The position numbers and the translations under genes are program-made. A model generated the notes under the pieces. It did not search any database. It had not been told where the DNA came from and saw only the letters and a list, made by a program, of their open reading frames with translations. Source: a virus. Taken from it: a DNA stretch of 64,000 bases. Every line of letters begins with the position of its first letter. Positions within the stretch are counted from its first letter, which is position 1. This document shows, piece after piece, positions 17,157-56,511 of the stretch. Location of the stretch: IMG/VR virus record IMGVR_UViG_3300001199_000004, one strand, 5' to 3'.

Positions 17157-18392
17157 TTAAGCAACCATGTCTTGGGCAAGATGCGTTTCAATAAACTTTT
17201 TGTCAACCTCATAGGAACCAACCTTTTCTGAGGCTTCGTACATTAAATCAAGCATAAAACTTTCTACAACACTTCGCAACCCTCTAGCTCCCACTTTCTT
17301 GTCAAAAGAAACTGAGGCAATATATTCCACAGCTTCATCCGTAAATGATAACGTAGAACCATCCATTTTGAACAACTTTTGATATTGCTTCAACAAAGCA
17401 TCTTTAGGCTCTGTCAAAACCTGAACCAATGCTTTTTTATCCAACTCTTTCAATGAAGTAATTGCTGGCAATCTACCAACTAATTCAGGGATTAGACCAA
17501 ATTCAACCAAGTCCTCACTGGTAAGCTTGGCCATCAAATCTTGATTCTTGGCTTCTTTGGAGCCAAAACCCATATACTTACCTTGACCCATTCGTTTTTC
17601 AATAATTTTATCCAACCCAACAAATGTCCCGCCACAGATGAATAGAATGTTTGTAGTGTCAATTTCAATGCATTGTTGCTCTGGATGCTTTCTACCACCT
17701 TGGGGCGGCACATTGCACTTAGTACCCTCTATAAGCTTCAATAGAGATTGTTGGACCCCTTCACCAGAAACGTCCCGTGTAATAGAAACGTTTTGACTTG
17801 TTTTACCAATTTTATCAATTTCATCAATATAAATAATCCCTCTTTCTGCAGAAGGAATATTCATATCGGTATTTCTAAGTAATTTTAAAACTAGATTTTC
17901 AACATCTTCTCCAACATATCCAGCTTCTGTCAGGGTTGTCGCGTCCCCAATAGCAAATGGAACATGCAACAGTTTGGCTAAAGTTTGTGCCAGTAAGGTT
18001 TTACCGCTACCAGTTGGACCAACCAAAAGAATGTTGGATTTTGAAATTTTAACATCTGAAAGATTACCCAAATCCATAGGTTTGCGTTCAGAAATAATCC
18101 GTTTGTAGTGATTGTAAACCGCTACGGACAATCTCTTTTTAGCATGCTCTTGACCGATAATATATTCGTCAAGATGCTTCACAATCTCTTTGGGAGAAGG
18201 GATCTTCGTTGATTTTTTTGGAGATTTGGGATCATCTTGTGGTGATTCTGTCATTGTAGTACGACAAATCTCAATACAAGACGCACAAATACTAGAAGGG
18301 ATTCTTCTAGGTTTAAGAATTGGCCCTTTTACAAGTGGTCCAACCTTACTAGATGGTTCACCACAAAAACTACAAACTGTCTTTTCTTCCAT
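17157..18392 (-). CDS. clpX: ATP-dependent Clp protease ATP-binding subunit ClpX
   Basis: CSFCG zinc-binding domain, [51 protein letters not shown]. Confidence 0.97.
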
Positions 18393-18432
18393 ATCCGCCT
18401 AACGTGTAAAATGAAACTAAGTCGTTAGGTTC

Positions 18433-18460: not shown

Positions 18461-18473
18461 GAAGTTTTATGTG

Positions 18474-25440: not shown

Positions 25441-25462
25441 TATACCTCAAGAAGATGGTATT

Positions 25463-39546: not shown

Positions 39547-40298
39547 TTATCTCAACAAGTCAAACTGACCTTTCATTACTTTCTTGATTTGGTTGGTAGT
39601 GATGTTTGTCCTATGGTCTATTACTTCACTTCTGATGAAATTATAGGTTCTAACTTTGCCACCACGACCACAGTCGCCAAGTTGGTCTTTTCTTTTTGAA
39701 TTATATTCTGAATTTTGTTTATTCAGATAATATTCATTTACTCTTTGAGTGACGATTTCCAATGCTTTTCGTTTGCTATTGCCTTGATCTCTTTCATCAA
39801 CTACTGCTTGGATACCAGTAGTTCGTTCAACCACACGGCAGCAACTATCGACTTTATTTTTATTAGATCCTCCAGGGCCTGTACCCCTCATAAACGTAAT
39901 GATCAAATCTTTTGGATTTAATTCAATAAGCTTATTTTGTTGTTTAACTGGTAGAACAGCAACAGAAACTACGGAAGTGTGATACTTCCCTAGAGACGTT
40001 CGCTGAACGATATGCTTTCCTACCTCATTTTGGAAAGCCTGAAGAACTTTGTTGCCACTCATTTTGGCAGCAATTCTTCCAGCATCAGATTCTAAAACTT
40101 GACATTTTAGATTTAAAGAAGAAGCATATTTTTGGTAAGCAGCAAATAAATCATGCACGAATAATTTACTATCATCGCCGCCTTCACCAAATTTAACTTC
40201 TAAAAGAAGCTCTTTTGTATCAGAGCTAAAGACAGTGAGTCAATCCTTGTGTGATATTGGGTTCATGGCTAAAGCAACCTCCGATTAAACTTACTCAT
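39547..40298 (-). CDS. Class-I peptide-chain release factor homologue (RF1-like, no domain 1), predicted to be made by two +1 frameshifts (about 249 aa)
   Basis: LLEVKFGEGGDDSKLF, EVGKHIVQR..GKYHTS, GPGGS, RTYNF...DHR. The RF frame is closed by TGA at 40240-40242. SD AGGAG plus ATG at 40298 lie in another frame. Confidence 0.85.
40225..40231 (-). promoter_or_regulatory. Second +1 frameshift site, CTT-TAG-C
   Basis: CTT TAG is in frame with the +1 product of site 1, and a +1 shift here enters the RF frame. Confidence 0.65.
40268..40283 (-). promoter_or_regulatory. First +1 frameshift cassette, GGAGG-TTG-CTT-TAG-C
   Basis: Same layout as prfB (internal SD, 3-nt spacer, CTT, stop, C) but with UAG. 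Confidence 0.8.
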
Positions 40299-41482
40299 AA
40301 CATTCTCCTAAATTAAAAATCAAACGGCTCATCAATACTACGATACTTTTTAACATTAGCACCATCTATAGATATAGGATAGTATACACATTTTGTTTTA
40401 CAAAGTAAACCCAAATTTACTAATTGTTCTGTAGAATAATACTTATATCTTGCCTTTGAATGCATTTCCAAATAAGTATTCTCACTAATATAATCAAGCA
40501 TTATTTGCTCACGGTTTCTACCACAGAAAGTTTATCCTGATTTGGGTAATAACACAGGATATAAACTCTTCAAAAGAGCTTTCTCAAACCATGTTCCTTC
40601 TTCCATAGATTTTTGCTCTTTTGGAGTAAGAGGAACTTTTTTGGGAATTTCTTTGTTTGAACAATGATAGCACCAAACGTTCATTACCAAATAGACCTTA
40701 AATTACTAAAAAGGATATTAACCGAAGGGGCGTCGGAAGGAGATTTTTGATTCCCAAGGATTTCTAACTTTGCTTTCTTTTTCCAAAAATGTCCAAAAAC
40801 TGAAAGAATTTGATACATTTTGCCTTCAGGCATTTTATCAGGTTCAAATACAACGTAATGATAGGAAGGTAAATTTCCCCAACCATAAACAAATTTACGA
40901 GTTTCCGATGTATACAACTTGCCTTCATCTGCATACATGATTTCAGTACGTTGAATTGGACCTGGATCGAATTTCAACAAATTCATCGCAGCTACAGCAT
41001 TAGCCAAATCTTTACAAGCAACGTAATAAACCATCGTGTCTTCCATTATTCACCCCACGGTTCATCAATGTCTCTATACTTAGAAGACTTTTTCTTTTCA
41101 GTTTCTAAAGGCACTGGGTTTGCAATAACTGGTTTTGGCTTTGGTTTGGGACTTTTGCCGCCATCTTTGGAATAGCCCGTCATAGCATCTGTCGCCATTT
41201 TACTATACATACAAATTCCTTATTTAGCAGACTTTATCCAAATGGTACTGTTGCCAGTTTGTTGCTGTTCTAGTCCAGCTTCAATAGCTTGTTGAAATGT
41301 AGTTAGATTATAATAGGTTAAACAACAAGCAACACAAATTGCAACCGCAGCAACACAAGTTACAATAACACAAATCATTTTTTGTTCTCCATTCATGCTT
41401 TTGTCTTCTTTAAAAGATGGAATGCCTTGTGTAATGTTTTGCCTCGGCTTTTTCCCAACAATACTATTATCAAGTTCGCCCA

Positions 41483-41965
41483 TTACAAACCTTCAATTCT
41501 AGTTCTAGTTATATTCTCAATCTTCCCAATGAATTCATCAGTGCAAGATTGAATTGTTTTTTCTTGTTTTTTTAGTTCGTCCTCAGCCAAACCTTGACGA
41601 ACTTTCTTGCGAATATTTCTAATAGAAACCTTCGATTCTTCTTCAAATTTCTTGATTTGCTTAACAACCTTGGCTTTTTCTTCCAAGCAAATAGGTGCAG
41701 CACTTACCACAACCATATGCTTGCCACTGCTGTAAGCAGAGAACCCAGAACGTTTAATGGCCTCTACCACCTTACCAGAAACTTGGTTATCGGACAAGAG
41801 AATACTAATGCCATTCTTGATGGGATTAGAGAACCCAAGAGTACCAATTGGTGTCATATTTCCATAATATTCCACCTTAATCATGTCAATTAAGGCTGGA
41901 CTGACCGTAGTAGAGTGAATCTTACTAATCTGATCTTCAAACAATATAAAACTTTTTTGCATCAA
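41483..41965 (-). CDS. frr: Ribosome recycling factor
   Basis: SPALIDMIKVEYYG..TPI, EESKVSIRNIR, IQSCTDEFI. Confidence 0.85.
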   Translation of the reverse strand: MMQKSFILFEDQISKIHSTTVSPALIDMIKVEYYGNMTPIGTLGFSNPIKNGISILLSDNQVSGKVVEAIKRSGFSAYSSGKHMVVVSAAPICLEEKAKVVKQIKKFEEESKVSIRNIRKKVRQGLAEDELKKQEKTIQSCTDEFIGKIENITRTRIEGL

Positions 41966-43172
41966 ACTGCGAACATCATTAGCACAACATAAAACTCTCC
42001 TAAAAGTTATTTTTCACGCCAAGCTTTTTTGGCTTCTTCCAACTGCTCATTTGTATATTTACGACTTTTATTGTTTAATTCAACAATAATTTTGCTCCGA
42101 TTGTCCCGCAATTCATTTATAAACGGCGTGCCATATTTAGCCATCTTTTCTTCGGAATAATTGCGAATAACTAAATGATATCGGTCAATTTCTATATCTG
42201 CTTGTTGCAACAGATTGGTTAATTCTACTTTATTTAATTCTGAAAGGCTAGCAAGTCCTGTTTTTAAATCCATTTGATTACTTCCGTATTTTAGGGACAG
42301 GCATTCTCACTAAGCAACCTTCCATTGCTCCACAACAAAGAAAATAAGGAACTAAGAAAATGGCCCTAAACCAATTCATAGCAGGCTCATTTTTGAATGC
42401 CAATTGAAGGATATGATCAATTAACGATAATGGATAGAAAACAAATATCTTCAATAAATGGTAAATTATAAAATAAATCATTTGTGCAACATCTCAAATA
42501 GGTCCAACATTTTATTCATCTCTTCAAAAGAGTATCGTCCTGAAAGAATATCTTGTTTTAAGCTATTTGACACATCGTTTTTAAGCACTACTCTGGCCTG
42601 CTGCCCTTCATCCATCCTTCGGTAGTCCATAAACTTACGATGCCAATAAGCAGTTTTTTGTTCCTTCTCCCAAGATTCTCTTTCGTGTCGTTCATCTATT
42701 TCCGCCAAATATTCTTGAAATTCAGGCTGTTTTTGAAAATAAGCAAACGATCCATAATCTCTTCCTTTATAGTAAAACTTGGGGGTTGGCTTAGGACGGA
42801 GATATCCTCTTTTTCTGTACAGATCTTCTTTAATACGTAATGCAGCCCATTGTTTCGCGTTTTCAAGCTCTGCTTCTTTTCTTTCTATTCCTAAAGTTAA
42901 AACTCTGTCATCATAAGTTTTTTCAGCATCTAAATTTTCAATTCTCTTCTCAAACAACTGCTTTTTGGTAATCTTAGGAGCTTGTGGTCTAGGAGCAGTA
43001 TAATAGTAATAGGTGTTAAAACTTGGATAGATATAAGGACGATATCCCCATTGCCCATAAGAAACGCTAGGGAACAATATAACGAGCAATATAATTATTT
43101 TCTGCATGAGAACCTTCCAAATTTTATAAATTGTCGTCATTGCACCATACTTTACTTCAAAATCACCAAATG

Positions 43173-44009
43173 TCAAGAAATATTGTCAAAATCCTCTCTC
43201 ATTAAGTTCCTTTCCTCAATCACTGCCTTCAAAACTTGATTAGGAGACAAATTATCAGCCATAAACTCAGCCAAAGCATTCGTATCCTTGGGGAAACATA
43301 AACCACCATAACTAATTTGACCGTCTGGACCAGGGATTGTTGTGTGTTGGGGGTTAATCCACCCATTAGCCAACATTAAATCCTTCACATTCTGATAATC
43401 CACAGATATTTTTTGACACAAAACATAGAATTCAGTGAACATCTGTACCTTGGCAGCATAAAAACAATTACAGAACAATTTCATGCATTCTGACTCGGTG
43501 GAAGTACAAACAGAGATTTTAGCCTCAAAATTGTCCTTATAAAAATCAATTAGTGGTTGAACATTATCTTGGGTTTTACCAATGATAATGTGTTTTTGAT
43601 TCAGAAAATCATCATTAGCTGTTCTAGCTGTTAAAAACTCTGGATTGTGGGCAATATTCAACCCATAATATTCTTGGTACTTTTTAGTAGTTTCTGGCTC
43701 GACCGTACTTTTTAATACGATTAATCCCTTAAAATCATGTTGTTTGAGTCTATCTAAAGTCTCTACAATTGGACTTTTATCATATTCTTTTTTATCTTGA
43801 TTATAAACCGTAGGTAAAGCCAAAAAAAGAATATCAGAATTTAGAATATCACTAAAAAACCCTATTTCTTTATATTTGTCATAAACAAACAATTGTTCTG
43901 AATTAAATTCTTTAGCAATAAGGGCATTTTGTATGGCTGTTCCAACAAATCCCAAACCAATTATTCCTATTTTTATCATTATGTGTGACCTTTTTTGTTG
44001 TTTCGGCAA
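43173..44009 (-). CDS. UDP-glucose/GDP-mannose 6-dehydrogenase family (short form)
   Basis: IGIIGLGFVG, LKSTV, HNPEFL, E..KLFCN, YGGLCFPKD. Confidence 0.88.
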   Translation of the reverse strand: MPKQQKRSHIMIKIGIIGLGFVGTAIQNALIAKEFNSEQLFVYDKYKEIGFFSDILNSDILFLALPTVYNQDKKEYDKSPIVETLDRLKQHDFKGLIVLKSTVEPETTKKYQEYYGLNIAHNPEFLTARTANDDFLNQKHIIIGKTQDNVQPLIDFYKDNFEAKISVCTSTESECMKLFCNCFYAAKVQMFTEFYVLCQKISVDYQNVKDLMLANGWINPQHTTIPGPDGQISYGGLCFPKDTNALAEFMADNLSPNQVLKAVIEERNLMREDFDNIS

Positions 44010-44052
44010 CTAATATATGTATGGCTTATTTACATCATAGGAGAGTAAATTT

Positions 44053-44247
44053 ATGAACATTATGTTGAATTCAGAAGAGTGGAAGAGCATTTTAAAGGGG
44101 ACTTTGGTCGCTGCAGTTGGTGCAGGATTGACCTATTTGGCTCAAACCGTTGGCGGATTAGATTTCGGAACTGCAACCCCAGCCGTCGTCGCGGTCTTGT
44201 CCGTAGCCGTCAACTACCTCAGAAAAGCATTTAATATTGCCGCTTAA
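44053..44247 (+). CDS. Small two-TM membrane protein (holin-like)
   Basis: Strong SD AGGAG, two hydrophobic helices, basic C-terminus. Confidence 0.4.
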   Translation: MNIMLNSEEWKSILKGTLVAAVGAGLTYLAQTVGGLDFGTATPAVVAVLSVAVNYLRKAFNIAA

Positions 44248-44544
44248 ATTAAGGTTTTCTTTTGGAAGAAATAATGCCTTCCAGAATAAAAACTTCTTTG
44301 TCCAATATTGTTGAGAATATAGCCCCAAAGATTGGCTTTTAAGTCGTCTTTGGGGCTTTTTATTACAACAGTGGCGTTTTTAAATACCTGTTTTTTATCT
44401 TCACAAATCACAATTAAATGAGCTTTAGGTTTTAACTCTAAAATAGCATCTACGGCTTCTTGCAATCCCCTTTTTGTCCTCGTCGTCTTTTTGTACAAAC
44501 TTAAAACCTATTTTTTTCTCCATGCTATATTTATGATTTAAAAC

Positions 44545-44576
44545 AAAAAAAGACAGTGACCAAAATCACTGTCTTT
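44545..44576 (-). terminator. Intrinsic terminator
   Basis: AAAGACAGTGA-ccaaaa-TCACTGTCTTT, with a U-tract on the minus strand. Confidence 0.8.
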
Positions 44577-44905
44577 CATGTTTATGGGTTTTTTGTTTTA
44601 CTTATGATTTTCCCATCAGGAGAAAACTGAACTACTTCAGCACCTGGAGTGGAAGCGTCAGAAAGACCACAAACATATCCTTGATCATATCCAATGGCAT
44701 AGCTTTCTAATACAGCCATGCCACGCCATTGATAAACCCCATAGCCATACCCAACAGCCAATCCTAAAATTATGAATCCAATATTAAATGCCATTTTCAT
44801 ATTATATCCTTTATTCGTGTGGTCCAAACAACCAACTTATTCCAATATAGCACAAAGCAACAATAGCTCCACCTATTGCTCCACAAATCATTGATAGTAA
44901 AAAAT

Positions 44906-45826
44906 TCATAATTTTCCTGCTGCTGCAGCAGCTTTAAGTTTGTTGTCAAGATCTATCAAATAATCCCGTCCATATGTTTTATTTTCCAAACCAGAATAAA
45001 GGTTTTCTGGTAAGTCATTGACAAATTCTTTACAATTCGATGCGATAGACAAAGCAATGCAAGCTACCGTATCTGTGTCTCCACTATAAGAAACACTTTC
45101 TTTAAGAATACCAGATAATGTTTTATTGTTGAATATAGCGGTTCTTGCCGCTCGAACACAGGGAATAGCTAGAGCATCCACTTTAGAACCGTCCCAAGGC
45201 TCCAAAATTGGCGTTGTAATCAATCCAACATCATTATATTGCTTATGTCCCAAACTTAATTCGGAAAGCCATTCGTCTACGTTTTTTAATGGCCCACAGT
45301 CATAAATAAAATAATGAGACATTAAAGCTACAACTAAAGAAGATTCTACTCCTTCAACAGAATCATGGGTTACAGAAGCTTGAACATATGCCATTTCAAT
45401 TACTTCTTTCAATATTTTAATATACCCAATAGGAGCAGCACGCATAGCAGCCCCTGACCTGTTGCTTTTACCACCTATTTTAGAAAGCAATTCTTTCCCA
45501 TTTTCTGAATTTAAGAGTAAATTCAGAAAAGCGGTTGTGTACCCTCTTCTTTGGTCCCGCTTGAAACATTCAACGAATTTATTGGCGAATGATAATTTAC
45601 TCCTGATGTTTAATAATTTGCTTCCGGGGCCGCTTAGTAATGTTTCGGCAACCCCAATCATCATTTGGGTATCATCAGTGTAGTTGCCAGGAGGGATTAG
45701 TCCTGGTTGGTATTCTTTATATTCTAAGAAATTTGGTTTATCTAAATGTGGGGCAATTTCTTCTTGTTCAAGTCCCCATTCAAATAATCCACCAAATGCG
45801 TCTCCTATCGCGGCCTCTACTAACAT
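44906..45826 (-). CDS. ADP-ribosylglycohydrolase (DraG/ARH family)
   Basis: AIGDAFG, YTDDTQM, SGAAMRAAP, VTH, GDTDTVA. Confidence 0.93.
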   Translation of the reverse strand: MLVEAAIGDAFGGLFEWGLEQEEIAPHLDKPNFLEYKEYQPGLIPPGNYTDDTQMMIGVAETLLSGPGSKLLNIRSKLSFANKFVECFKRDQRRGYTTAFLNLLLNSENGKELLSKIGGKSNRSGAAMRAAPIGYIKILKEVIEMAYVQASVTHDSVEGVESSLVVALMSHYFIYDCGPLKNVDEWLSELSLGHKQYNDVGLITTPILEPWDGSKVDALAIPCVRAARTAIFNNKTLSGILKESVSYSGDTDTVACIALSIASNCKEFVNDLPENLYSGLENKTYGRDYLIDLDNKLKAAAAAGKL

Positions 45827-47603
45827 GTGTGTTCCTAAATTAGATTTTCAAATTCAATACAAACAGATTTGCCTTGACTAATTAAAATTGCCTGATTGAT
45901 GGGCATGTTTGACTTTTTGTAAATATAAAAATTACTTTTAATTGTAGGGCAAACACCAACATAATCCATATTGCCAATAGAAGAAATAACTACTGCATGC
46001 TTTAATATTGTTGTTGTTTCAAATATTGAGGAAACATTTGGACTGGTTATTAAATCTACATGGAGTGAATTGGCTAAATCCTTTTAAACAACCACATATA
46101 AAAATCTAACTAAATCATCAAATCTTTCTTCAAGCGTATTTCCAATTACTAAACTAAAATCCCATTTACGTGTTTCCATCTTTTTTATCCTTTTCAGATT
46201 CTCTTTCAAACTCGCGACCCATTGCCACTAAACCAAGCCAACAAAAAACCATGCCCATTGCCACTAAACCAATACTTATAACCCAAGCTATCATTTGTTT
46301 TCTTCCTCAAATTTTGCGTCAAATGCGTCAAATTCTCTTCGTTCTTGTCTAATGGTTAAACATACATTATGCAACAAAGCACTTAGATCAAGCCAACAAG
46401 CACCCATAGTAACTTTTTCATTCCAAGATTTAAATCTTGGTAAATCAGAAAGAACTTCCCAACAAAGCTTATTTATATCGCACAATGAAAACATTCCAAA
46501 ACCATAATCATCAAATTTAGAACGAATGCAAGCTGTTAAAAAAGATACTGCTTCTTCTAACCCAGGAGCGTGAGCGGGTGGAGTATCTTTTTCATAGCCT
46601 GCAAATTGTTTGATTAGCCAATAAGCCAACGCTCCCGTTATGTCACGATAACTTGTTAATCTTTTTGTGTTCCATTCAATATTATCAGAAAGACGTTCAT
46701 ATGTCTCTGGTGTGTTGGCAATTGCAGCATTTAATTCATTAATGCAAGCTTCATTCAAAAATCCATCTTCAGTGAATAATGTGTTTTCAAGAAAAGGAAT
46801 TTCAATTTTCGTATATTGTCTGTCTGATTTGTTTTCCATATTTATGAAGAAAATTGTTTATTTTTAAGAAATTCAAATAAAAAACAACTATTATTGTTTG
46901 CAGTTCTTGCATAACTCAAACAATCTATTTCAAATTTTTTAATTTCATTTTTTCTAAAATTGTATTTAATTATTGGATGCTCTAAATCAATTTTACTATC
47001 ATCTAATGTATTAAAAACCTTGCCAATTTCCAATAAATTATCTAATTTAGTCAATCTTAATTCCCACAAATTTTCCTCTAAAATAAACCCATTTGATTTA
47101 ACATAAACTAGCTCTGGAATGTATTGCGAATTACATTCGTGAGGCAATTTGTAATACATTTCCAATTTAAGTTGAAAATTAACATTAGAGTTTTTTAGAA
47201 ACAAAACTTCAACATCAACATTTGTTCCTTCTGGTTTAATAAGACGATCACCAAAATACAAATCAATGTCAATAAATTTACCTAAAGGTTTTAATTTATA
47301 ATAACTATTTCTCATTTTGTTCATCTTTTGGTTTTGAAATTAAATCAGGCAAAACATTCCCTGGGCATTTTAAATTATGAAAATCGTCAATATCTCCGGT
47401 GCCATTATTCATGGCACGATCTTTGCTTCGTTGTATTATTTCTTCTTTTTGAACTTTTTCAATTTCAATTTCTTCAATTGTAACTTCATTGATTATTTTC
47501 TCATCTTTACATAAAATTTCTTCTTCATTGATTTTTTTATCATTATCCATTGGCATTTTTCCTTTGTTTCTATATTTTATTAAAACAAATTATCTAAATC
47601 AAT

Positions 47604-47641
47604 AAAAAAACCACCAATTATAAAAATAATTGGTGGTTTTT
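47604..47641 (-). terminator. Terminator directly 3' of tmRNA
   Basis: AAAAACCACCAATTAT-aaaa-ATAATTGGTGGTTTTT. Confidence 0.88.
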
Positions 47642-47642
47642 A

Positions 47643-47996
47643 TGGAGATGGCGAGTATCGAACTCGCGTATCTGTACAGCTAAATTAATTGCTTTCTACG
47701 ATGTTTATCTTTATTGTTCATCTTAATTATAAAAACCACATAAAAGCTAAGGTTTTTACAAAGCGACGACTTATTTTTTAATTTCTCTTTAATCGCACAA
47801 AGAGAAACGATTCAAATTTTATGACAAGTTTTCGGACGCCTTTGAAATTAGCTTCCTGAACCAGTCGCAGGTTATTAAGCTGCGAGTGCGAAAGTTTCGC
47901 CGTTTAAGGCTTTTAATCGAATTTTAACGTGGCCACTCGATTAACCACGACATGCAACAATTAACTCACTCTGCCAGTCGATTCCAATTCATCCCC
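47643..47996 (-). ncRNA. ssrA: tmRNA (354 nt); predicted tag (A)GETFALAA
   Basis: 5' GGGGATG pairs with 3' CATCTCC-A including G3:U70; T-loop GTTCGAT; tag ORF GGC GAA ACT TTC GCA CTC GCA GCT TAA TAA at 47901-47872; CCA not encoded. Confidence 0.95.
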
Positions 47997-48033
47997 GTTT
48001 AACTGGCCAAGGAAACCCTAGCCAGTGTTTTCA

Positions 48034-48062
48034 CTTATAGGCAATTTACAATTTTGTGTAAA
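48034..48062 (-). promoter_or_regulatory. Sigma70-type promoter of tmRNA
   Basis: TTTACA-N17-TATAAG; the leader contains a hairpin at 48002-48026. Confidence 0.65.
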
Positions 48063-48065
48063 CCC

Positions 48066-48686
48066 CTATTTGTTATCATTTTCAAGTTCACATTCCCAAT
48101 AACTTGCCGAGAGAAACGATCTCCATGACTCTGCTCTGTACTCACCCAAAACCAAATTGTATTTTGGACGAACAGGAACTTTTTTCAATTTCATGCCTGC
48201 TTCTTCTGGTGTTTTATCTGCCTTTCTTGTATTGCACTTAATGCACGCAAGAACGCAGTTTTCCCAAGTTGACAGACCACCCCTAGAACGTGGCTGAACG
48301 TGATCAATATTCAACAACTCACTTGCAAACTTCTTGTTACAGTATTGGCAAGTGTAATCATCACGCTTATACAACGTTCTACGGCTGAAATGTACCCGTG
48401 GTCTTGGAACCTTATCATATTTAGTCAATTGAATGACTTCAGGGATTCTGAAGATTGCATTAATAGACTTGATGTGTTCTTCACCAGTTTTAGGTAAAAT
48501 AGCCGACCAATCACTCCAGGTAATACCTTGGAAATCATTGGCACAGTCAATAATTTTAGCTTTAGGCTCTCCGTCATCGTAATAAGCAAAAACTTTGTTT
48601 AAGGCATCCTTAAGTGGGATAACCTTAATCGCTTGCCACGATTTATTTAATACTAAAACCTTTTTTCTTGTTAATAAGCCGACCAC
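48066..48686 (-). CDS. HNH endonuclease (McrA/HNH_5-like)
   Basis: VLVLNKSW, FSRRTLYKRDDYTCQYC, NIDHVQPRSRGG.STWENCVLACIKCN. Confidence 0.93.
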   Translation of the reverse strand: MVGLLTRKKVLVLNKSWQAIKVIPLKDALNKVFAYYDDGEPKAKIIDCANDFQGITWSDWSAILPKTGEEHIKSINAIFRIPEVIQLTKYDKVPRPRVHFSRRTLYKRDDYTCQYCNKKFASELLNIDHVQPRSRGGLSTWENCVLACIKCNTRKADKTPEEAGMKLKKVPVRPKYNLVLGEYRAESWRSFLSASYWECELENDNK

Positions 48687-48737
48687 AAATCACCTTTATG
48701 CTTTTCAGAGCTACCGCTGAATCGGTTCATCCATCTT

Positions 48738-48745
48738 TATTTATA
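48738..48745 (-). promoter_or_regulatory. T4-like late promoter box TATAAATA
   Basis: Exact T4 late consensus upstream of the HNH gene. Confidence 0.55.
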
Positions 48746-48774
48746 CTGTAATAATAGTTATTTTCAAGGAAATA

Positions 48775-49221
48775 TTACAACAGTTTTAAATGTCCAGTAA
48801 TTTCATCTATGTCAGCACTTAAATTAGGCCCAATGGCACAACAAGTATTTGTTGGAACCCCATGAAACTCCGTCAATCCGCTATCGCAGATCAAATGAGC
48901 TTCTAAACCTTTTTCTTTTGCCTTGTTATAAATATTAAGCAATTCCTGCTCTGATTCAACTCTCACACAAATTTTCTTGAAATTTCCGTATATCCAGGCT
49001 TCTTGTTCTGGAGATAAAAGTTCATTTTGAATAAGATTACGCATCAATTGTGAACGTGAGCCACTAGATGATTTTGCAATGTTTTGAATAAAATGACTCA
49101 TCCAAGCTCCAGAAGCGTGTGCCCCTTGAGCTATTTTTTTTCCCAATCGCATGTTCAAATCGTGACGAATAACTATGGTTTGTTTAACGTTAATTTTTTC
49201 TGGTGTGTCTTGGTTTTCCAT
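48775..49221 (-). CDS. pth2: Peptidyl-tRNA hydrolase type 2
   Basis: KQTIVIRHDLNMRLGKKIAQGAHA, KKICVRV, DSGLTEF..PT.TCCAIGP. Confidence 0.95.
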   Translation of the reverse strand: MENQDTPEKINVKQTIVIRHDLNMRLGKKIAQGAHASGAWMSHFIQNIAKSSSGSRSQLMRNLIQNELLSPEQEAWIYGNFKKICVRVESEQELLNIYNKAKEKGLEAHLICDSGLTEFHGVPTNTCCAIGPNLSADIDEITGHLKLL

Positions 49222-50604
49222 TTTTTTTATTTCTTATTTACGTTGGCTGTTCACTAATTGATTCAAACCTTACAAATTCCCATCTTTCTCTATCATCACT
49301 TAAACAATATTGTGGGCGATTTCTTCCATTTGTAGTATTGACAGGAACAAAATGGTTCCCTGGATTGGCGTTAACTGTGTACCAAATTGTGCCATCATCT
49401 GGACCACCCACTACAACTGCACAGCTATTGCCATTAGCATCCTTCATCTTCATCACCATCATCTTCCATAGAGCCTTGGGACCACTTCAAAATCTGCAGT
49501 TCCATATCATGCCAACCAGAACCTTTGCCACGCCTATTAGCAATCATAGAAGTTAACAAAGTAGCAACTTCTAAATCATAAGCATCAAATTCTGCACCAG
49601 ATATAGGAGTTTTAATTAATTTTAACCACCATTTAGCATGATGTAAAGATTGTCGCCAATGTATTTGGCTACTCTTTTGACATTGTTTCTCATAATAGTC
49701 TACAAACTTTTGTGCTGCCACTTCATCATGATTAATTCCATCCATAGGCTCTTTAACAACACACACTTCATAATCTGGTTCGATAAATGAAGCGTAATTG
49801 TTTATATCTTCTGGATCATACTCGTGAATTGAACCTAAATTAACGGTTATTGAATTAAATCTCTCCTTGCCCACAAGGAACAAAGAGGTTTTCATATTGT
49901 AAATACCATCAGCTTCTACCCATTGACCACCAATAGGAAGTTCACGAAATTTTTTAATCATTTGTATTTACGTTCTTTCACAAATTCAGGTTCACAAAAA
50001 GAAACCTTAAAATTCCCACTAACTGACTCACAAATTCCACCATCACAAATTTTAATATCTTGTGGCACTAATTCCGCTCGTTGTTTATCTGTTAATTTAG
50101 ATTTGGCATACTCAACAATAAGCTTTTTCACTTCACCAGAAGTTACATGAATGGTTTCAAAATTATCCCAGATACTCTTAGTCGTCATAAGTGTGGATTC
50201 CTATTGGCAATTTCTCAAAACACTTTATATATTCAATCACATAATTCATCTAATTCGTTTAACAAAACTGCCAATTTTGGATCACGAACGTTGTTAATGC
50301 ACTTAATCATATCGTCAGCGACTTCATCTGAGATTGTACCAAGAACCATTTCGCGTTCAACATGACGGACAATTCTTGCTCGGTCCCAAATGACTTCTTG
50401 TGGTTCATTCATATTTTTTGTACTTTTCTATCGTCTTGTCTTCATTCGATTCCATTTCATCACAAAACTCTTTGGCTTCATCATACGTGTCAAAATGAAC
50501 TGGATCAAATAAATCTGGACGGTTAACGTAATTAACGCAAACAGTATTCCCATTTGCGTTAATTATACGATAGCCATACCATCTTGCTTCTTCAATTTTG
50601 TAAC

Positions 50605-52002
50605 TCAATGAAACTCCGTTCCACCCTTGCGAGCTAAATAATCAGCAGAAACAGACTTTACAATTCTCCTACCATTCAAAACACGGCAATAAGGAACTTC
50701 TACCGTTGGAGTACATACAATTCCTTCCCGACCACTAAACTTACCTGCAGCCTTAACATCACACATAGTCGTTGGGCCAGAGGTATGTAATTCCAAAATT
50801 TCCTTACTAAATGGTCCTCGATACAAAATCGGAACCATTTCAACGCCAAATTTTTCAAACAAATCCTTCTTCACATCATAAGACAAATACTTGTTGTTTA
50901 CAGCGATGTCAAATGCTCTAAAAGATTTCCCAGAAAACCCGTATGCCATATCTTGAATTCCCAAGCCTACAAGCTCCCCGAATACAATAACGCTATATTT
51001 AGGTTCTTCTGGTTCATATTCATTACGAATATAAATCAATAGTTCCTTAACATTATCAGTAAGTGGAAGCCAAAATTCAGAACGAACCAAAACAGGCTCA
51101 AAACAGTTTTCATTGTCTTTAACTTCAAAACACTGACACTTATCAACTACAGATTCATCATATCTTACAATCACACCCTCTTCAACTACAGGAGTTTTAA
51201 TGGGTTGTTCAAAAACATAATCAACTTGCCAAATTCGACCATTTTCATTGAAAATTGTCCCTGCAATTGGCGGTTCAGACAAAATACCATTTGCAATCAA
51301 CTCTTCAATACGATATCGAGTTTCAACCTTAGACCATTCTTTACGACGCACATCATGAGATCCAGCAGTGAAAACCCAATCTTTTTGGCCGTCTTCAAGA
51401 TCGTCAAGAATAAGACCAACTCTAGTGTTCTTACCATGAAGTTTTTCGGTATAAACAACTTCCGTTCCATCCTCAATGGCATTTGGATAATTAGCAAAGT
51501 TTTCAAGTTCCGTATAACGATGGAAAAACGTACTTGGTTTTTCTGCTTGCCCATCATTAGTAGGAGGCGGCGGATCATATTTGGTTACACCAAAATGTTC
51601 TGCAACATCTTGTCCGACTTCCCAATTGGGGTCATCGCCCCAAGTTGGGTCAATCTTCATAATCACACCATAGGAAACTTGTCCTCTTAAACGACAAGCA
51701 ACCACTCTTCCACCCTCGGGACGAATACCAAATTCATCCTTAGGAAGATGATGCAAATACTTCAAATTTCCCAATCTACCCTTGGGAGTATCATTAGGAC
51801 CATTACACAAAGCCAACGGCAAAATAGCATCAGGAGGAAAAAAGATGCATTTTTCGCCTTCTTGAAACTGAGCTACTTTGGAAATTGGGTCAAAAGTGAT
51901 ACAAACTTGCCAACCCTTAATGTGGGCTACGGCAAGCTTATCCGCATTTTCATGAGGTTCTACTTTGTCAACAGTACAAACTTCTACGATTAATTTGCTC
52001 AT
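50605..52002 (-). CDS. RNA ligase, DRB0094/Rnl5 family, with an internal insertion
   Basis: HENADKL, LRGQVSYG, YTEKLHG, FGEL.G.GIQ, FDI, REGIV, KSVSADYL. Confidence 0.9.
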   Translation of the reverse strand: MSKLIVEVCTVDKVEPHENADKLAVAHIKGWQVCITFDPISKVAQFQEGEKCIFFPPDAILPLALCNGPNDTPKGRLGNLKYLHHLPKDEFGIRPEGGRVVACRLRGQVSYGVIMKIDPTWGDDPNWEVGQDVAEHFGVTKYDPPPPTNDGQAEKPSTFFHRYTELENFANYPNAIEDGTEVVYTEKLHGKNTRVGLILDDLEDGQKDWVFTAGSHDVRRKEWSKVETRYRIEELIANGILSEPPIAGTIFNENGRIWQVDYVFEQPIKTPVVEEGVIVRYDESVVDKCQCFEVKDNENCFEPVLVRSEFWLPLTDNVKELLIYIRNEYEPEEPKYSVIVFGELVGLGIQDMAYGFSGKSFRAFDIAVNNKYLSYDVKKDLFEKFGVEMVPILYRGPFSKEILELHTSGPTTMCDVKAAGKFSGREGIVCTPTVEVPYCRVLNGRRIVKSVSADYLARKGGTEFH

Positions 52003-53371
52003 TTATATGTCTCCTATACTTTAAGGTACAATCAAATGGTTTTCTTAGAGACACACAAAATCTCAATAAGTTCGTCTACCAAAAAAACCAATTGATCTTT
52101 TCTAAATTTTGGATGAACTTCTAGGGCAATTCCACGAAAATCGTGGTAAAAAATAAATTTGTTGTAAGGTTTTTCATCAAAAGAAAATCCCCAAACAGAA
52201 TTTAAGCCTTCATATACTTTTCGGCAATTGTACTTACAGCCCAACAATTCAATCAACTTTTTTGTTTTATCTTTAATGGGGCCAGTAGCCGCCAAGCCAT
52301 TAAGTCTGTACCAACCTTGCAACAACATCATTTTTTCCAAAGAAACACATCTAAAGTTATCAATCCTTTGACAAACTTCGGCCAATTCATTTGTTTCTTT
52401 ATTCGTTAATTGTTTCATAATCTTGGAAAAACCTGTTTGTTTAACAACTCATATTTGGCATTGCCATATCTGGCAACATCAACAACATTTATGATATCTT
52501 CATATTCTTTTTTGGTAATTTTTCCATCTTCTAAAGACTTATTAATTACAGCCAAAACATCTACAGTATTGTGTTGTTTACGCCAAAGCAAAACATTATC
52601 ATATGCAACTATGCTTATTTCATCAGGAGGAAATAAGTTTTTAACTTCGATCTGATTGTTTTCTGATTGTTTATATTCGGTTTGTTTGCCTGGAAGGAAA
52701 ACACAAATAGTCAAAAGAATTAACCACGGAAAAACTAAAAATTTATCGTGACACATTATTATCCTAACTTAATTGAAACTTTTTCAGGGGTCATATAAAA
52801 CGTTTTGCCACAAAAACAATGGGCAACACAAAAGCGATCATCATTCTCTTTATTGAGATTTAACTGCCAAACCAACGACTCACTACAGAAACAACAGAAG
52901 CCCCGCATAAGGGCTTCATGGTAATCATAGGAGTTATTGGGGGCTATTTTAAGTCCTAAATCCATTTTACATCAAAGATAGCCCCAAAGAAAACATTAAA
53001 ACAACAGCTAAAATCACCAAACATTCCACAACAACAAGAAACGTTTGATTTACTTCAAATTTTCTTGTAATTTCAATAGCTTCTTGTGGATTACAATCAA
53101 CTTGTGAAAGCAAATAATTGAATTGGGTAGTATTGATATCTCCACGATAAAGACGACGGCAAGTATTGTAAATCAATTCTTCTCGTTGTTTATCTGTAAT
53201 TGTCTTCTTCGTCATAAGGCAAATAATCCCTGTCAAATAAATATTGTTTCTTATTCATTTCTGCCTGCTTCAAAATATAGTCATTTTGTTGAATAATTTT
53301 CAACTTCAACGCTTGAATTTCTTTTTTTAAAGCAACATTCTCTTCAATCAATTTATCGTATTCGTTCATTT

Positions 53372-54310
53372 TTACCGTGGTGTGTGTACCTTTTCTCGTC
53401 CATTGCCAATCGAAGGGATTACCTTATCTGGGTTCTCCTTCATCCAACCTTGAACAAACCACAACATCCCACAACCCCCACCAATATCATCTTGTCCAGC
53501 AGGATTGAAAACTCGGGTGTTAAAGTTGTTTTCTGCTAGCTTATCACGGAAATCATGGGCCAATTTTTCTTGACGAGCATTTGCAGCAGCAACATGTTCA
53601 TCACGCTCACAAATAACCGAAATAGTAGCTTGCCAAACTCTTGGATCAAAAAGCTTGGTAATTCTAGCCACATCTTCATCAGTATTGTTCTTGTCGTGAA
53701 CACAATAATTGAAGAAAGGATGCCGACCAGTAGCTTTATACCAACGCTCGCCTTGAACAGCAATTTCTTCCAAAGTCAACTTCTTCTTAAACGGAATAAG
53801 TTGATTACGAGCTTCATCAGTGCTTTCATGAATGGAAAATTGAAGGCCAATGGTGGGTATTTCTTTGGAAATTTCAATTACTTCATCATAATTGACTTGT
53901 GGAGCAGTAGTGCTAATGAGTAATGCTGCGGTGGGGTATTTTTGATAAAGCTCTCGCATCGCTGGAATAAGAGCCTTGAGATTAAGCAAGGGCTCACCCA
54001 TCGACATAAACATGATTTGAAGACGGTCAATTTGCTTTTCGCCAGTATCGTCCAAAAGACGGCTGGGCTGTGAAACAATTTCTTCCGTGGTCAATGAGCG
54101 TACAAAATAATCACCAGCCCCACAAAAACGGCAACCTACAGGACAACCACTTTGGGTAGAACAACAAATTACCGTACGATCCTTGTAGGTAGGATACTTG
54201 TATAAAACGGCTTCGGCTACAGCGTTTTCCTTGGTAAAAACGTACTTTTTAACGTTTTGATCGCTAGAATCAATAATTTTAACGTCGTTCCACAAAGCTT
54301 GTTGCAACAT
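53372..54310 (-). CDS. RlmN/Cfr-family radical-SAM RNA methyltransferase
   Basis: CCSTQSGCPVGCRFC (CxxxCxxC), MSMGEP, IST, SIH, DIGGGCGML (conserved C-terminal Cys). Confidence 0.88.
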   Translation of the reverse strand: MLQQALWNDVKIIDSSDQNVKKYVFTKENAVAEAVLYKYPTYKDRTVICCSTQSGCPVGCRFCGAGDYFVRSLTTEEIVSQPSRLLDDTGEKQIDRLQIMFMSMGEPLLNLKALIPAMRELYQKYPTAALLISTTAPQVNYDEVIEISKEIPTIGLQFSIHESTDEARNQLIPFKKKLTLEEIAVQGERWYKATGRHPFFNYCVHDKNNTDEDVARITKLFDPRVWQATISVICERDEHVAAANARQEKLAHDFRDKLAENNFNTRVFNPAGQDDIGGGCGMLWFVQGWMKENPDKVIPSIGNGREKVHTPR

Positions 54311-55579: not shown

Positions 55580-56511
55580 AATTTTTCTTTCAAAATATTT
55601 TCAATTTTATTAAATTCAAGATAACTAATTCTTAGAATATCAATATTATTTTCAATACAAAAATTAGTTTTTATTTCATCATGTTTTTTAACCACTTTAA
55701 GCCGCTCATCTCCACCAAAATAGTCTATAGAATAAAAATGATGTTGTCCATCATATTCAACACATACATTATAATCTGATAAGTAAAAATCAAATGGTAA
55801 TTCATAAAAACACTTACATTTTTTAAATTTTTTCTGTGGTGTGTACTTTATTTTGTTTTTAATTAAAAAATCTTCTATGGCAAATTCTCCGCGTGATTGA
55901 TTACAAATAGGACATCCTTGTTTTTTATTTAAATGGGCACAAGCATTTTGATAAAAATATTTTTGATGTTTTTTGCAAAAAATTTTGATTTTATGTCTTC
56001 CTCCTTTGTAATCCCCACAATAATCATATTTGTTGTCATGAATTTTTTTACATTCATTCTCGAAACACAAAACAGATTTAGGTAAATTTTGTGGCAATTT
56101 TTTATAAACACAATATTTACATCCACATCCCTCTAAATGGGAACTTGCTCTTTGCAAAAAAGATTTATTGCATTTTTTGCACTTAATTTTTATCTTTTTC
56201 TTATTTCCTTTATACTCGCCTATATACTCAAATTTATCTCCATGTTTTTTAATTGCTAAATCAACAAATTCTTCATGTGTTATTTTTTGATTCTGTGGCA
56301 ATTTTTTATATTGACAAGGTTTACAACCATTTCCACCAAGATGATTATGTGGCAATAATTTCCATTTATTTTGACATTTTTTACACTTTATAATAACCTT
56401 GACTTTTGAAGAAACAAAATTCACTTCTGAATAATCGTATTTATCACCATGAACCTCTATTGCTCTTTCAATAAATGTTTCTGTATTTATTCTTGACCAT
56501 TTTTTATGCAT
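55570..56511 (-). CDS. Free-standing endonuclease: repeated zinc ribbons plus a PD-(D/E)XK/Vsr-like domain
   Basis: Three HGDKYDY...KIKIKCKKC...HL.G.GC repeats; LPFDFYL...VEYDGQHH. Confidence 0.82.
   Translation of the reverse strand: MHKKWSRINTETFIERAIEVHGDKYDYSEVNFVSSKVKVIIKCKKCQNKWKLLPHNHLGGNGCKPCQYKKLPQNQKITHEEFVDLAIKKHGDKFEYIGEYKGNKKKIKIKCKKCNKSFLQRASSHLEGCGCKYCVYKKLPQNLPKSVLCFENECKKIHDNKYDYCGDYKGGRHKIKIFCKKHQKYFYQNACAHLNKKQGCPICNQSRGEFAIEDFLIKNKIKYTPQKKFKKCKCFYELPFDFYLSDYNVCVEYDGQHHFYSIDYFGGDERLKVVKKHDEIKTNFCIENNIDILRISYLEFNKIENILKEKLCI

What the first reader, a model, noticed from the sequence alone, without database searches (positions are those of the whole stretch)
39547..54310. 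Near-complete translation termination, rescue and recycling toolkit
An RF homologue, RRF, tmRNA, Pth2 and an RlmN/Cfr-like methylase fall within 15 kb, with ClpX further upstream. Inference: the phage rewires the end of the translation cycle, perhaps against defences that stall ribosomes or cut tRNA and mRNA.
Basis: partly seen in the sequence, partly recalled or inferred. Interest (0 to 1): 0.6.

Follow-up and report, generated by a model that had tools for sequence, protein, structure and literature searches.

The report
Phage translation-termination and ribosome-rescue gene island
A huge phage carries its own release factor, ribosome recycling factor, tmRNA, peptidyl-tRNA hydrolase and an rRNA/tRNA methylase within 15 kb; such kits are already known from huge phages, but here the release-factor and recycling-factor genes can apparently be read only if ribosomes shift frame at a stop codon, which would make them on demand.

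Summary
All five elements lie at the stated coordinates, and a true ClpX lies 21 kb away.

"Near-complete toolkit" is too strong.
- The window has no SmpB or ClpP.
- The genes sit in at least three or four transcription units.
- They are mixed with anti-defence, ADP-ribose and homing-nuclease genes.

Huge phages are already known to carry RF, RRF, tmRNA and Pth2 (Al-Shayeb 2020; Iyer 2021). This scan also noted similar islands, and a frameshifted RF1, on other DNA.

Co-occurrence test:
- One relative (RF 75% identical) keeps the whole order.
- In whole huge-phage records, only RF and Pth2 are linked. They lie within 10 kb in 6 of 10 lineages (P about 2e-4).
- tmRNA, RRF, SmpB and the RlmN-like gene are patchy and mostly far apart.
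- RRF sits next to RF only in this sub-lineage.

Unusual features:
1. The RF lacks domain 1. Uniquely among about 120 relatives it has GGS instead of GGQ, and its PxT codon-reading loop is deleted. It still evolves under constraint.
2. The RF frame needs two conserved +1 shifts at CUU-UAG.
3. The RRF gene follows a conserved three-to-five-codon leader ending UGUGC-stop. The RRF frame is always +1 to that leader. I found no description of this.

No expression data could be obtained.

The parts
39547..40298 (-). Release-factor gene, read as three frames. ORF1 starts at the ATG at 40298 and gives MSKFNRRLL. The first CTT-TAG is at 40274-40269. After a +1 shift there are 14 codons. The second CTT-TAG is at 40231-40226. 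After a second +1 shift the RF frame runs 40227-39547. The predicted product is 249 aa. It is an RF1-type protein with domains 2-4 only, GGS in place of GGQ, and the PxT loop deleted.
   Evidence: The leader cassette is conserved in L002, L017, L015, L014, L109 and LR756511.
41483..42001 (-). RRF gene with its leader. An AGGAG Shine-Dalgarno sits about 6 nt before the mini-ORF ATG TTG TGC TAA (41990-41979). A 16-nt gap follows, then the ATG at 41962, which has no SD of its own. The RRF frame is +1 to the mini-ORF and open through the gap. The RRF body ends at 41483.
47640..47996 (-). Full-length tmRNA. It has a G3:U70 pair in the acceptor stem. The tag reading frame is 47901-47875, giving (A)GETFALAA followed by TAA TAA. 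No CCA is encoded.
   Evidence: Rfam 109.5 bits. Compared with L002 there are compensatory stem changes and only synonymous changes in the tag.
47606..47641 (-). Intrinsic terminator directly after the tmRNA 3' end (16-bp stem followed by a T-run).
48066..48686 (-). HNH nuclease between Pth2 and tmRNA. A conserved homologue lies between or beside Pth2 and RF in at least 8 relatives.
48775..49221 (-). Pth2-type peptidyl-tRNA hydrolase with an ordinary ATG start.
50605..52002 (-). RNA ligase with an N-terminal OB domain, of the DraRnl/DRB0094 type.
   Evidence: PF09414 plus PF21189. TIGR02306 E 5.4e-35. 92% identical in L008.
53372..54310 (-). RlmN/Cfr-family radical-SAM methylase lacking the N-terminal ~70-residue domain.
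   Evidence: 96.8% identical in L008, dN/dS 0.02.
46291..46839 (-). Tad5-like protein (anti-Thoeris family), interspersed among the translation genes.
   Evidence: PF25190 32.7 bits, cut-off 27.
44906..45826 (-). ADP-ribosylglycohydrolase, interspersed among the translation genes.
   Evidence: PF03747 E 5.4e-31.
17157..18392 (-). ClpX unfoldase. It is the likely reader of the LAA-ending tag. No ClpP is in the window.

Best explanation
**What it is.** This is a lineage-specific translation island in the accessory arm of a huge phage. The contig is 167 kb, and relatives are 340-570 kb. It is not one operon. At least three or four minus-strand transcription units carry:
- a shortened RF1-type factor;
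- RRF;
- tmRNA;
- Pth2;
- an RlmN-like methylase.

Anti-defence and homing-nuclease genes lie between them.

**Proposed working (inferred).**
- The set keeps ribosomes cycling while mRNAs and tRNAs are being broken during infection.
- tmRNA, with an SmpB supplied from elsewhere, frees ribosomes on broken mRNAs. It tags the products with an ALAA-ending tag for ClpX.
- Pth2 clears peptidyl-tRNA that falls off.
- RF and RRF add release and recycling capacity.

**RF and RRF appear to be made on demand.**
- The RF frame is reached only through two prfB-like +1 shifts at CUU-UAG.
- The RRF frame is reached from a 3-codon leader ending UGUGC-UAA. There, tRNA-Cys on UGC can re-pair on the overlapping UGU two bases back (a -2 shift, equivalent to +1).
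- Both sites place a stop codon in the A site. Yield should therefore rise when stop-codon processing or recycling is slow.

**This phage's own RF.**
- It has lost the Gln of GGQ and the PxT loop.
- It is probably no longer an ordinary UAA/UAG-reading factor.

**Shown versus inferred.**
- Shown: family assignments, synteny, and conservation of motifs and frames.
- Inferred: that shifting occurs, what it senses, and the purpose of the set.
For: **Gene identities.**

**Separate transcription units.** Terminators lie at 52917, 47641 and 44577.

**Synteny.** The full order is kept in L008/L002, with protein identity of 75-97%. All genes are under purifying selection, dN/dS 0.02-0.33; RF is 0.125.

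**Linkage.**
- RF and Pth2 lie within 10 kb in 13 of 18 records that have Pth2.
- After dereplication of records of at least 150 kb this is 6 of 10 lineages, P about 2e-4.
- RRF is directly adjacent to RF in L109.

**RF leader.**
- An SD-like element, a 3-nt spacer and CTT-TAG-C occur twice, 43 nt apart, in the window, L002, L017, L015, L014 and L109.
- LR756511 uses TAA and TGA at these sites.
- A CTT-stop lies 67-73 nt before the RF match in 17 of the 23 closest IMG/VR loci.
- The conserved start of domain 2 lies upstream of any start codon in its own frame.

**RRF leader.**
- TGTGCT[AG]A, preceded by an SD and ATG, occurs before 10 phage-type RRF genes.
- The gap from the stop to the RRF ATG is 7-25 nt and always equals 1 mod 3.
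- The RRF frame is open through the gap in 10 of 10.
- None of 69 bacterial-type RRF loci has the motif.
- All three substitutions in the window-versus-L008 gap are synonymous only in the RRF frame, including CGC to AGA.
- The 10-residue extension restores the roughly 12 N-terminal residues that canonical RRFs have before the aligned Met.

**tmRNA.** Stem changes are compensatory and the tag changes are only synonymous.

**Literature.** Without RRF, ribosomes stay on the mRNA and read downstream or change frame (PMC9955659).
Against: - No expression or proteomic data could be obtained. Frameshifting is inferred from sequence only.
- tmRNA, RRF, SmpB and the RlmN-like gene are not linked to RF in most huge phages. 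The five-gene cluster may therefore be historical accident.
- The genes are interleaved with unrelated genes and split by terminators.
- The second RF shift site has no SD in this window.
- A UGC-to-UGU -2 re-pairing has, to my knowledge, no experimental precedent in bacteria. Reinitiation at the downstream ATG remains possible.
- The GGS, loop-less RF may not release peptides at all, which would break the feedback logic.
- Some short RRF genes lack the leader (L107/L120, L142, L100).
Confidence: 0.5

Rival explanations
1. The island is specifically a counter-defence kit. It rescues ribosomes jammed by host abortive-infection nucleases that cut tRNA, mRNA or rRNA, and it works together with RNA repair.
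For: - The neighbours are counter-defence or RNA-repair types. They are Tad5-like, ADP-ribosylglycohydrolase, an Rnl-type RNA ligase between Pth2 and the methylase, Ro60/TROVE, NADAR, an NYN RNase, a weak 2H-phosphoesterase hit, and NAD-salvage-like genes.
- The same logic is published for jumbo-phage Pth2 and RNA ligases (PMC7824862).
Against: - Nothing here links any gene to a particular defence.
- The Rnl-type ligase lies within 10 kb of RF in only 3 of the 80 IMG/VR loci.
- Ordinary needs would equally select for the same genes: the phage's own degradation of host mRNA, and a high translation load.
- The leaders sense stop-codon processing, not RNA damage.
Confidence: 0.3
2. The cluster is a chance juxtaposition. 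Independently acquired auxiliary genes have piled up in a permissive accessory region, with no functional coupling beyond a shared theme.
For: - The same families lie 15-290 kb apart, or are absent, in most other huge phages.
- The cluster has several terminators and unrelated inserts, and mobile nucleases are nearby: HNH, GIY-YIG and TnpB.
- The full order is shared only with one relative (RF 75% identical).
Against: - RF-Pth2 proximity recurs with different gene orders, with Pth2 either upstream or downstream of RF, P about 2e-4.
- RRF-RF adjacency holds in three diverged members.
- RF and RRF share the same style of stop-codon-dependent gating.
Confidence: 0.3
3. The release-factor gene of this phage is a decaying or catalytically dead copy, so the kit is partly vestigial.
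For: - GGS replaces GGQ only in this sequence among about 120 family members.
- The PPTE loop is deleted, and seven family-invariant positions are changed, against one or two in typical relatives.
- At 75% identity, RF is more diverged from its L008/L002 counterpart than most neighbouring genes; only four of the sixteen others are more diverged.
Against: - Pairwise dN/dS is 0.125, with dS about 1.3. This is in the range of its neighbours.
- Both shift cassettes and the whole frame are intact.
- A second lineage, P0008, has the same 4-residue loop deletion but keeps GGQ. This points to a working loop-less form.
- From my own knowledge, unchecked here: substitutions of the GGQ glutamine other than proline keep much of the in-vitro release activity.
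Confidence: 0.15
4. This is a genetic-code-switch module. The RF helps the phage change how stop codons are read late in infection.
For: Phage RFs sit in such modules in stop-codon-recoded phages (bioRxiv 10.1101/2021.08.26.457843).
Against: - Under the standard code the window is 89% coding, and all three stops are used: TAA 56, TGA 26, TAG 8.
- There are no tRNA genes, and so no suppressor tRNA, in the 64 kb.
- Pth2 has no in-frame stop.
Confidence: 0.03

Closest known systems
Translation-gene repertoires of huge and jumbo phages (Al-Shayeb et al. 2020, PMC7162821; Iyer et al. 2021, PMC7824862)
   Same: - Phage-borne RF1/RF2, RRF, tmRNA, SmpB, Pth2 and RNA-repair enzymes.
- Pth2 is proposed to rescue ribosomes after tRNA cleavage.
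- The best database hit of the RF is a 595-kb genome of that data set.
   Different: - In the passages I read, those papers list gene presence. I saw no mention of RF-Pth2 linkage, a domain-1-less RF family, recoding leaders, or a GGS variant.
- Their tmRNA census used ARAGORN, which misses this tmRNA.
prfB (RF2) autoregulatory +1 programmed frameshift
   Same: - An SD-like element, a 3-nt spacer, CUU, a stop codon and C, near the start of a class-I RF gene.
- The stop in the A site is the sensor.
   Different: - There are two sites in tandem.
- The stop is UAG (in relatives also UAA or UGA).
- The gene is RF1-like.
- A survey of 12,753 bacterial genomes found no programmed shift in prfA and never TAG as the prfB stop (PMC12421855).
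Mimivirus/Megavirus class-I release factor gene (Jeudy et al. 2012, PMC3521657)
   Same: A virus-encoded release factor whose synthesis needs two successive recoding events at internal stop codons. This is read as autoregulation.
   Different: - That gene is eRF1-type.
- It uses one frameshift plus one readthrough, in a eukaryotic host.
PrfH (with RtcB2) and ArfB, the shortened RF homologues that rescue damaged or nonstop ribosomes
   Same: - An RF-derived protein without domain 1.
- An altered or absent stop-codon reader.
- A possible codon-independent action.
   Different: - Sequence scores are far below both families: TIGR03072 44.5 against 166.7, and NF006718 19.6 against 100.
- There is no RtcB neighbour.
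- Both PrfH and ArfB keep GGQ. This protein has GGS.
RlmN/Cfr radical-SAM methylases of 23S rRNA A2503 and tRNA A37
   Same: - The CxxxCxxC cluster.
- Both mechanistic cysteines (E. coli Cys118 and Cys355 equivalents) are aligned.
   Different: - It lacks the N-terminal ~70 residues.
- It scores 108.7 against a cut-off of 290.
- Its substrate is unknown.

Membership tests
Class-I release factor RF1 | RF-1 (GGQ) domain and PCRF domain recognised by Pfam | tested here: met
   PF00472 69.9 bits (cut-off 35). PF03462 26.3 bits (cut-off 24), C-terminal third only.
Class-I release factor RF1 | Catalytic GGQ tripeptide | tested here: not met
   The protein reads GPGGSNKN. All other family members examined have GGQ.
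Class-I release factor RF1 | PxT stop-codon recognition tripeptide | tested here: not met
   The four residues PPTE of the family consensus VQRVPPTE are deleted.
Class-I release factor RF1 | N-terminal domain 1 and a full-length equivalog score | tested here: not met
   The match covers positions 124-333 of 347. The score is 154 bits against a cut-off of 400. No domain-1 coding sequence lies upstream.
PrfH | TIGR03072 score and an adjacent RtcB ligase | tested here: not met
   44.5 bits against 166.65. No RtcB was found; the ligase 10 kb away is Rnl-type.
prfB-type +1 programmed frameshift cassette | SD-like element, short spacer, CUU, in-frame stop, and the product frame at +1 | tested here: met
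   Site 1 reads GGAGG TTG CTT TAG C. Site 2 reads TGT CTT TAG C, without an SD. The frames were verified and are conserved in relatives.
prfB-type +1 programmed frameshift cassette | Frameshifting actually occurs and responds to RF level | not testable with these tools
Ribosome recycling factor | RRF domain over its full length | tested here: met
   PF01765 87.2 bits (cut-off 29.7), positions 1-158 of 164. It aligns to solved RRFs from residue 13 onward.
Ribosome recycling factor | NCBIfam equivalog cut-off (frr) | tested here: not met
   TIGR00496 80.3 bits against 149.1. It belongs to a short phage-type clade of 153-165 aa.
tmRNA | Covariance-model match, G3:U70 acceptor pair, and a tag frame ending in a stop | tested here: met
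   109.5 bits against 47. GGGGAUG pairs with CAUCUCC. The tag is GETFALAA followed by TAA TAA.
tmRNA | SmpB partner | tested here: not met
   No PF01668 hit among the window's ORFs. SmpB is present in 4 of 50 related records. The rest of this genome is not available.
Pth2 | Equivalog-level match | tested here: met
   TIGR00283 89.3 bits against 82. PF01981 covers positions 1-115 of 115.
RlmN/Cfr | Radical-SAM CxxxCxxC plus the two mechanistic cysteines | tested here: met
   The alignment to 3rf9 shows all of them.
RlmN/Cfr | N-terminal accessory domain and the equivalog score | tested here: not met
   The match starts at model position 74. The score is 108.7 bits against 290.
ClpX | Equivalog-level match | tested here: met
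   NF003745 574 bits against 359.

The most novel reading that the evidence does not exclude
The stop-codon factors of this phage lineage form a demand-driven circuit written into their own mRNAs.

- **RF.** It is translated only after two +1 slips at CUU-UAG.
- **RRF.** It is translated only when a ribosome that has read a 3-5-codon leader fails to leave the UGUGC-stop site. The ribosome resumes two bases back on the overlapping Cys codon. This would be the first natural sensor of ribosome-recycling or termination failure.
- **This phage's RF.** It has in addition evolved into a Gln-less factor without a codon reader, and it has a new role.
Probability: 0.3. Interest if true: 0.8.

Novelty: new variant of a known kind. 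Interest (0 to 1): 0.55.

Why it matters
The gene kit itself is ordinary for a huge phage. Three points make the locus worth attention.

- **Recoding on a second and third stop-codon factor.** If the two leaders work as read, phages have put prfB-style self-measurement on an RF1-type gene and on frr. A recent survey of 12,753 bacterial genomes found no programmed frameshift in prfA (PMC12421855). For frr I found none described in the papers I searched.
- **A direct handle on an open debate.** The frr leader would let one test what ribosomes do when they are not recycled, which is still contested (PMC7538156 against PMC9955659).
- **Candidates for bench work.**
  - The conserved RF-Pth2 pairing points to a shortened RF family of unknown job.
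  - The natural GGS, loop-less variant is a ready-made probe of what the GGQ glutamine and the PxT loop are needed for.

Tried and rejected
**Searches and look-ups that gave nothing**
- Megablast of the 14.8-kb stretch against 50,697 phage records: no match.
- No whole genome is held for this window.
- Single-protein scans of IMG/VR with RF and with RRF found nothing. Alignment queries were needed.
- An exact-sequence look-up of the window's RF found no record.
- One RRF relative (P0140) had no retrievable DNA and looked bacterial.
- PHROGs and Pfam gave nothing for seven conserved unknown ORFs in the stretch.
- Most tblastn RRF hits in the phage collection were bacterial contaminant contigs.

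**Ideas rejected**
- tmRNA as a mere integration-site remnant. It is full length, has its own terminator, and shows compensatory and synonymous change.
- An alternative genetic code. All three stops are in use, and coding density is 89% under table 11.
- An amber-gated Pth2, as noted elsewhere in this scan. The Pth2 here starts normally.
- The missing RF domain 1 hidden upstream. All three frames there are closed.
- Promoter-like sites. Their number is not above the shuffled expectation (73 against 68), so I drew nothing from them.

**Not attempted**
- No structure or complex prediction was run. Neither would have decided the questions at issue, and I do not claim that any of these proteins bind each other.

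Full report
**What is there**

The stretch 39547-54310 lies in a gene-dense region that is almost wholly on the minus strand. Of 90 ORFs, 82 are on the minus strand. Under the standard code 89% of the window is coding, and G+C is 35%.

- **Release-factor homologue**, 39547-40158: RF-1 and partial PCRF domains.
- **RRF**, 41483-41965.
- **tmRNA**, 47640-47996: full length, 109.5 bits. ARAGORN does not see it.
- **Pth2**, 48775-49221: passes the NCBIfam equivalog cut-off.
- **Radical-SAM protein**, 53372-54310: its best families are RlmN and then Cfr. It keeps the iron-sulphur motif and both mechanistic cysteines, but lacks the N-terminal ~70 residues.
- **ClpX**, 17157-18392: a true ClpX, 574 bits against a cut-off of 359.

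Other genes lie between them:
- an HNH nuclease;
- a Tad5-like protein;
- an ADP-ribosylglycohydrolase;
- a truncated nucleotide-sugar dehydrogenase;
- a DraRnl-type RNA ligase;
- seven conserved ORFs of no known family.

Terminator-like hairpins at 52917, 47641 (directly after the tmRNA) and 44577 split the stretch into at least three or four units.

No SmpB or ClpP was found anywhere in the window. Pfam and NCBIfam gave none of the scanned ORFs an RF3, ArfA/B or HflX assignment (same calls, plus 13, 68 and 94). "Near-complete" therefore overstates the content.

**What kind of genome**

- There is no nucleotide match in 50,697 phage records.
- The RF's best protein match (43%) is a 595-kb uncultured phage from the huge-phage study.
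- The window's own contig is 167 kb.
- The rest of the window carries typical huge-phage accessory genes: Ro60/TROVE, NADAR, a SpoT-like HD domain, a sigma factor, PRPP-synthetase and NMNAT-like genes, an NYN RNase, sugar enzymes, TnpB, and GIY-YIG and HNH nucleases.

**Is the clustering kept in relatives?**

*Relatives found through the RF protein*
- L002/L008, seen in several sequencing runs, keeps the entire order: methylase, ligase, Pth2, HNH, tmRNA, Tad5, ARH, dehydrogenase, RRF, RF. Protein identity is 75-97%.
- L109 (RRF 53%, RF 44% identical) has RRF and RF directly adjacent.
- L017 (RF 63% identical) has RF next to HNH and Pth2.

*Whole-record searches.* I collected 80 IMG/VR loci with the short-RF family. 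I then searched the whole records behind the first 50.

| Element | Records with it (of 50) | Position relative to RF |
|---|---|---|
| Pth2 | 18 | within 10 kb in 13 of the 18 |
| tmRNA (full length) | 18 | near RF in 2 of 14 lineages (P 0.29) |
| RRF | 5 | 22-181 kb away |
| SmpB | 4 | far from RF |
| RlmN-like gene | 2 | 18 and 93 kb away |

- For Pth2, restricting to records of at least 150 kb and merging obvious duplicates gives 6 of 10 lineages. About 6-10% would be expected by chance, so P is about 2e-4.
- The gene order around RF and Pth2 differs between lineages.
- In three 595-642-kb phages and in Sinorhizobium phage Phosso, the same families lie 70-290 kb apart or are missing.

*Conclusion.* RF-Pth2 is the conserved core, often with the same HNH gene between them. 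RRF-RF linkage is specific to this sub-lineage. The tmRNA and the methylase are linked only in the window and in its one fully syntenic relative (L002/L008).

**The release factor**

It belongs to a large family of 200-250-residue RF1-like proteins on huge-phage contigs.
- All members lack domain 1.
- Nearly all have VQRVPPTE and GGQ.

The window's copy is an outlier.
- The four residues PPTE are deleted.
- GGQ is GGS, which needs at least two base changes.
- Five further family-invariant positions differ, including the H-x-P-T-G motif of domain 3.
- One other lineage (P0008, 60% identical) has the same loop deletion but keeps GGQ. It is not the window's nearest relative, which suggests a recurrent, working loop-less form.
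- Pairwise dN/dS against L002 is 0.125, like its neighbours. This argues against long-standing decay.

The conserved start of domain 2 (ELLLEVKFGEGGDDSK) lies upstream of any start codon in its own frame. It is reached as follows.
- Translation starts at the ATG at 40298.
- A first +1 shift occurs at GGAGG-TTG-CTT-TAG-C.
- A second +1 shift occurs 43 nt later at TGT-CTT-TAG-C.

The tandem cassette recurs in L002, L017, L015, L014 and L109. LR756511 has it with TAA and TGA. A CTT-stop lies 67-73 nt before the RF match in 17 of the 23 closest IMG/VR loci.

A survey of 12,753 bacterial genomes found no programmed shift in prfA and never TAG in prfB. Mimivirus offers a parallel: its RF gene needs two recoding events.

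**The recycling factor**

The RRF ATG at 41962 has no Shine-Dalgarno of its own. Thirty bases upstream, AGGAG precedes ATG-TTG-TGC-TAA.

The same device, an SD and ATG followed by zero to three further codons and then UGUGC-stop, precedes ten phage-type short RRF genes: the window, L008, L109, L110, L099, L101/102, L111, L112, L113 and L122. The evidence that it matters:
- The gap to the conserved Met is 7, 16, 22 or 25 nt, always 1 mod 3.
- The RRF frame is open through the gap in all ten.
- None of 69 bacterial-type RRF loci from the same metagenome scan has the motif.
- Between the window and L008, the three substitutions in the gap are synonymous only in the RRF frame, including CGC to AGA.
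- The resulting ten-residue extension fills the roughly 12 N-terminal residues that solved RRFs have before the aligned Met.

The gap is therefore most likely translated in the RRF frame, which needs a shift from the leader.

UGUGC lets tRNA-Cys move from UGC to the overlapping UGU two bases back. That is a -2 shift, equivalent to +1. It could happen in two ways:
- while release is slow; or
- after release, if the ribosome is not recycled.

Inokuchi et al. report that without RRF, ribosomes stay on the mRNA, read downstream and change frame. I found no description of an frr leader in the papers searched. The scan holds a note of a different leader-plus-terminator before a phage frr on other DNA (e1-5350511). 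Some short RRF genes lack the motif (L107/L120, L142, L100).

**The tmRNA and Pth2**

*tmRNA*
- It has the G3:U70 pair and the tag (A)GETFALAA with a double stop. It has no encoded CCA and has its own terminator.
- Against L002 it is 93% identical. The changes in the acceptor stem and P2 are compensatory, and the tag has two synonymous and no non-synonymous changes.
- It is therefore a working gene, not an attachment-site remnant.
- Its tag ends in the ClpX degron, and ClpX is encoded 30 kb away.

*Pth2*
- It starts with an ordinary ATG.
- This is unlike the amber-gated Pth2 genes noted elsewhere in the scan.

**How it most likely works, and how sure I am**

Gene identities are near certain. 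Everything below them is less so.

- The genes probably serve one physiological purpose: keeping ribosomes free at the end of the translation cycle during infection. This is probable but rests on inference.
- RF and RRF appear to be made in proportion to failure at stop codons. Conserved motifs, conserved frames and the substitution pattern support this. No experiment does.
- I cannot tell whether the selective pressure is host defence or the phage's own disruption of host RNA.
  - The neighbours favour a conflict setting.
  - The idea is already in the literature.

**Verdict**

- The kit is a new member of a known kind.
- The recoding-gated RF and RRF and the GGS, loop-less RF make the locus a new variant worth bench work.

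Noticed in passing
window 48066-48686 (-); L017, L021, L024, L030, L031, L033, L037, L038, L041, L057: The HNH nuclease between Pth2 and the tmRNA is no random insert. Homologues (phmmer E 1e-31 to 1e-76) lie between or beside Pth2 and RF in at least eight other lineages. Their conservation is as strong as or stronger than that of RF itself. I could not tell whether it is a site-faithful homing nuclease or a working partner.
   Followed up: partly
window 47640-47996 (-): ARAGORN finds no tmRNA here, although Rfam scores it at 109.5 bits. Surveys of phage tmRNAs that rely on ARAGORN, as the huge-phage study did, may undercount this type.
   Followed up: partly
window 40208-40227 (-): A 6-bp hairpin (AGCTCT...AGAGCT) starts right at the second CTT-TAG shift site. 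The stem is kept, with a varying loop, in L002, L017 and L015. It could stimulate the shift.
   Followed up: no
window 7366-9399 (-): A Ro60/TROVE protein (PF05731, E 2.4e-19).
   Followed up: no
window 24412-25990 (-) and 29346-30527 (+): A PRPP-synthetase-family protein, an AAA_28 kinase-like protein and an NMNAT-like adenylyltransferase lie close together. They look like an NAD-salvage or NAD-reconstitution set of the kind phages use against NAD-depleting defences.
   Followed up: no
window 2134-2658 (-); 46291-46839 (-); 44906-45826 (-): A NADAR domain protein (E 1.4e-46), a Tad5-like protein and an ADP-ribosylglycohydrolase. All three act on ADP-ribose-derived molecules.
   Followed up: no
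window 15261-19160 (-): A run of host-physiology genes: a SpoT/RelA-type HD domain protein, a sigma-70 family factor, ClpX and an M50 site-2-type peptidase.
   Followed up: no
window 42478-43176 (-); L015 3027-3692; L017 3941-4573: An unknown 232-aa protein stays near the RF in three diverged relatives (36-79% identity). It has no Pfam, NCBIfam or PHROG match.
   Followed up: no
window 56792-57985 (+), 55570-56511 (-), 20416-21222 (-): Mobile-element nucleases border the island: a solo TnpB, a large HNH/treble-clef homing-type endonuclease (phrog_559) and a GIY-YIG/NUMOD3 endonuclease.
   Followed up: no
L001 (LR756511) about 19850-19930; L024, L030, L031, L041: In other members of the short-RF family the two shift sites use different stops: TAA then TGA, TGA then TGA, or TAA, TGA and TAG. 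The leader may therefore sense different release-factor activities in different phages.
   Followed up: partly
window 11696-12139 (-), plus one unlocated ORF of alignment A2: A weak 2H-phosphoesterase (tRNA-ligase CPD) hit, and a 'Swiss Army Knife' RNA-repair HAD-domain hit (E 1.1e-20). I did not map the second to an ORF. Together with the Rnl-type ligase they suggest an RNA-repair set.
   Followed up: partly
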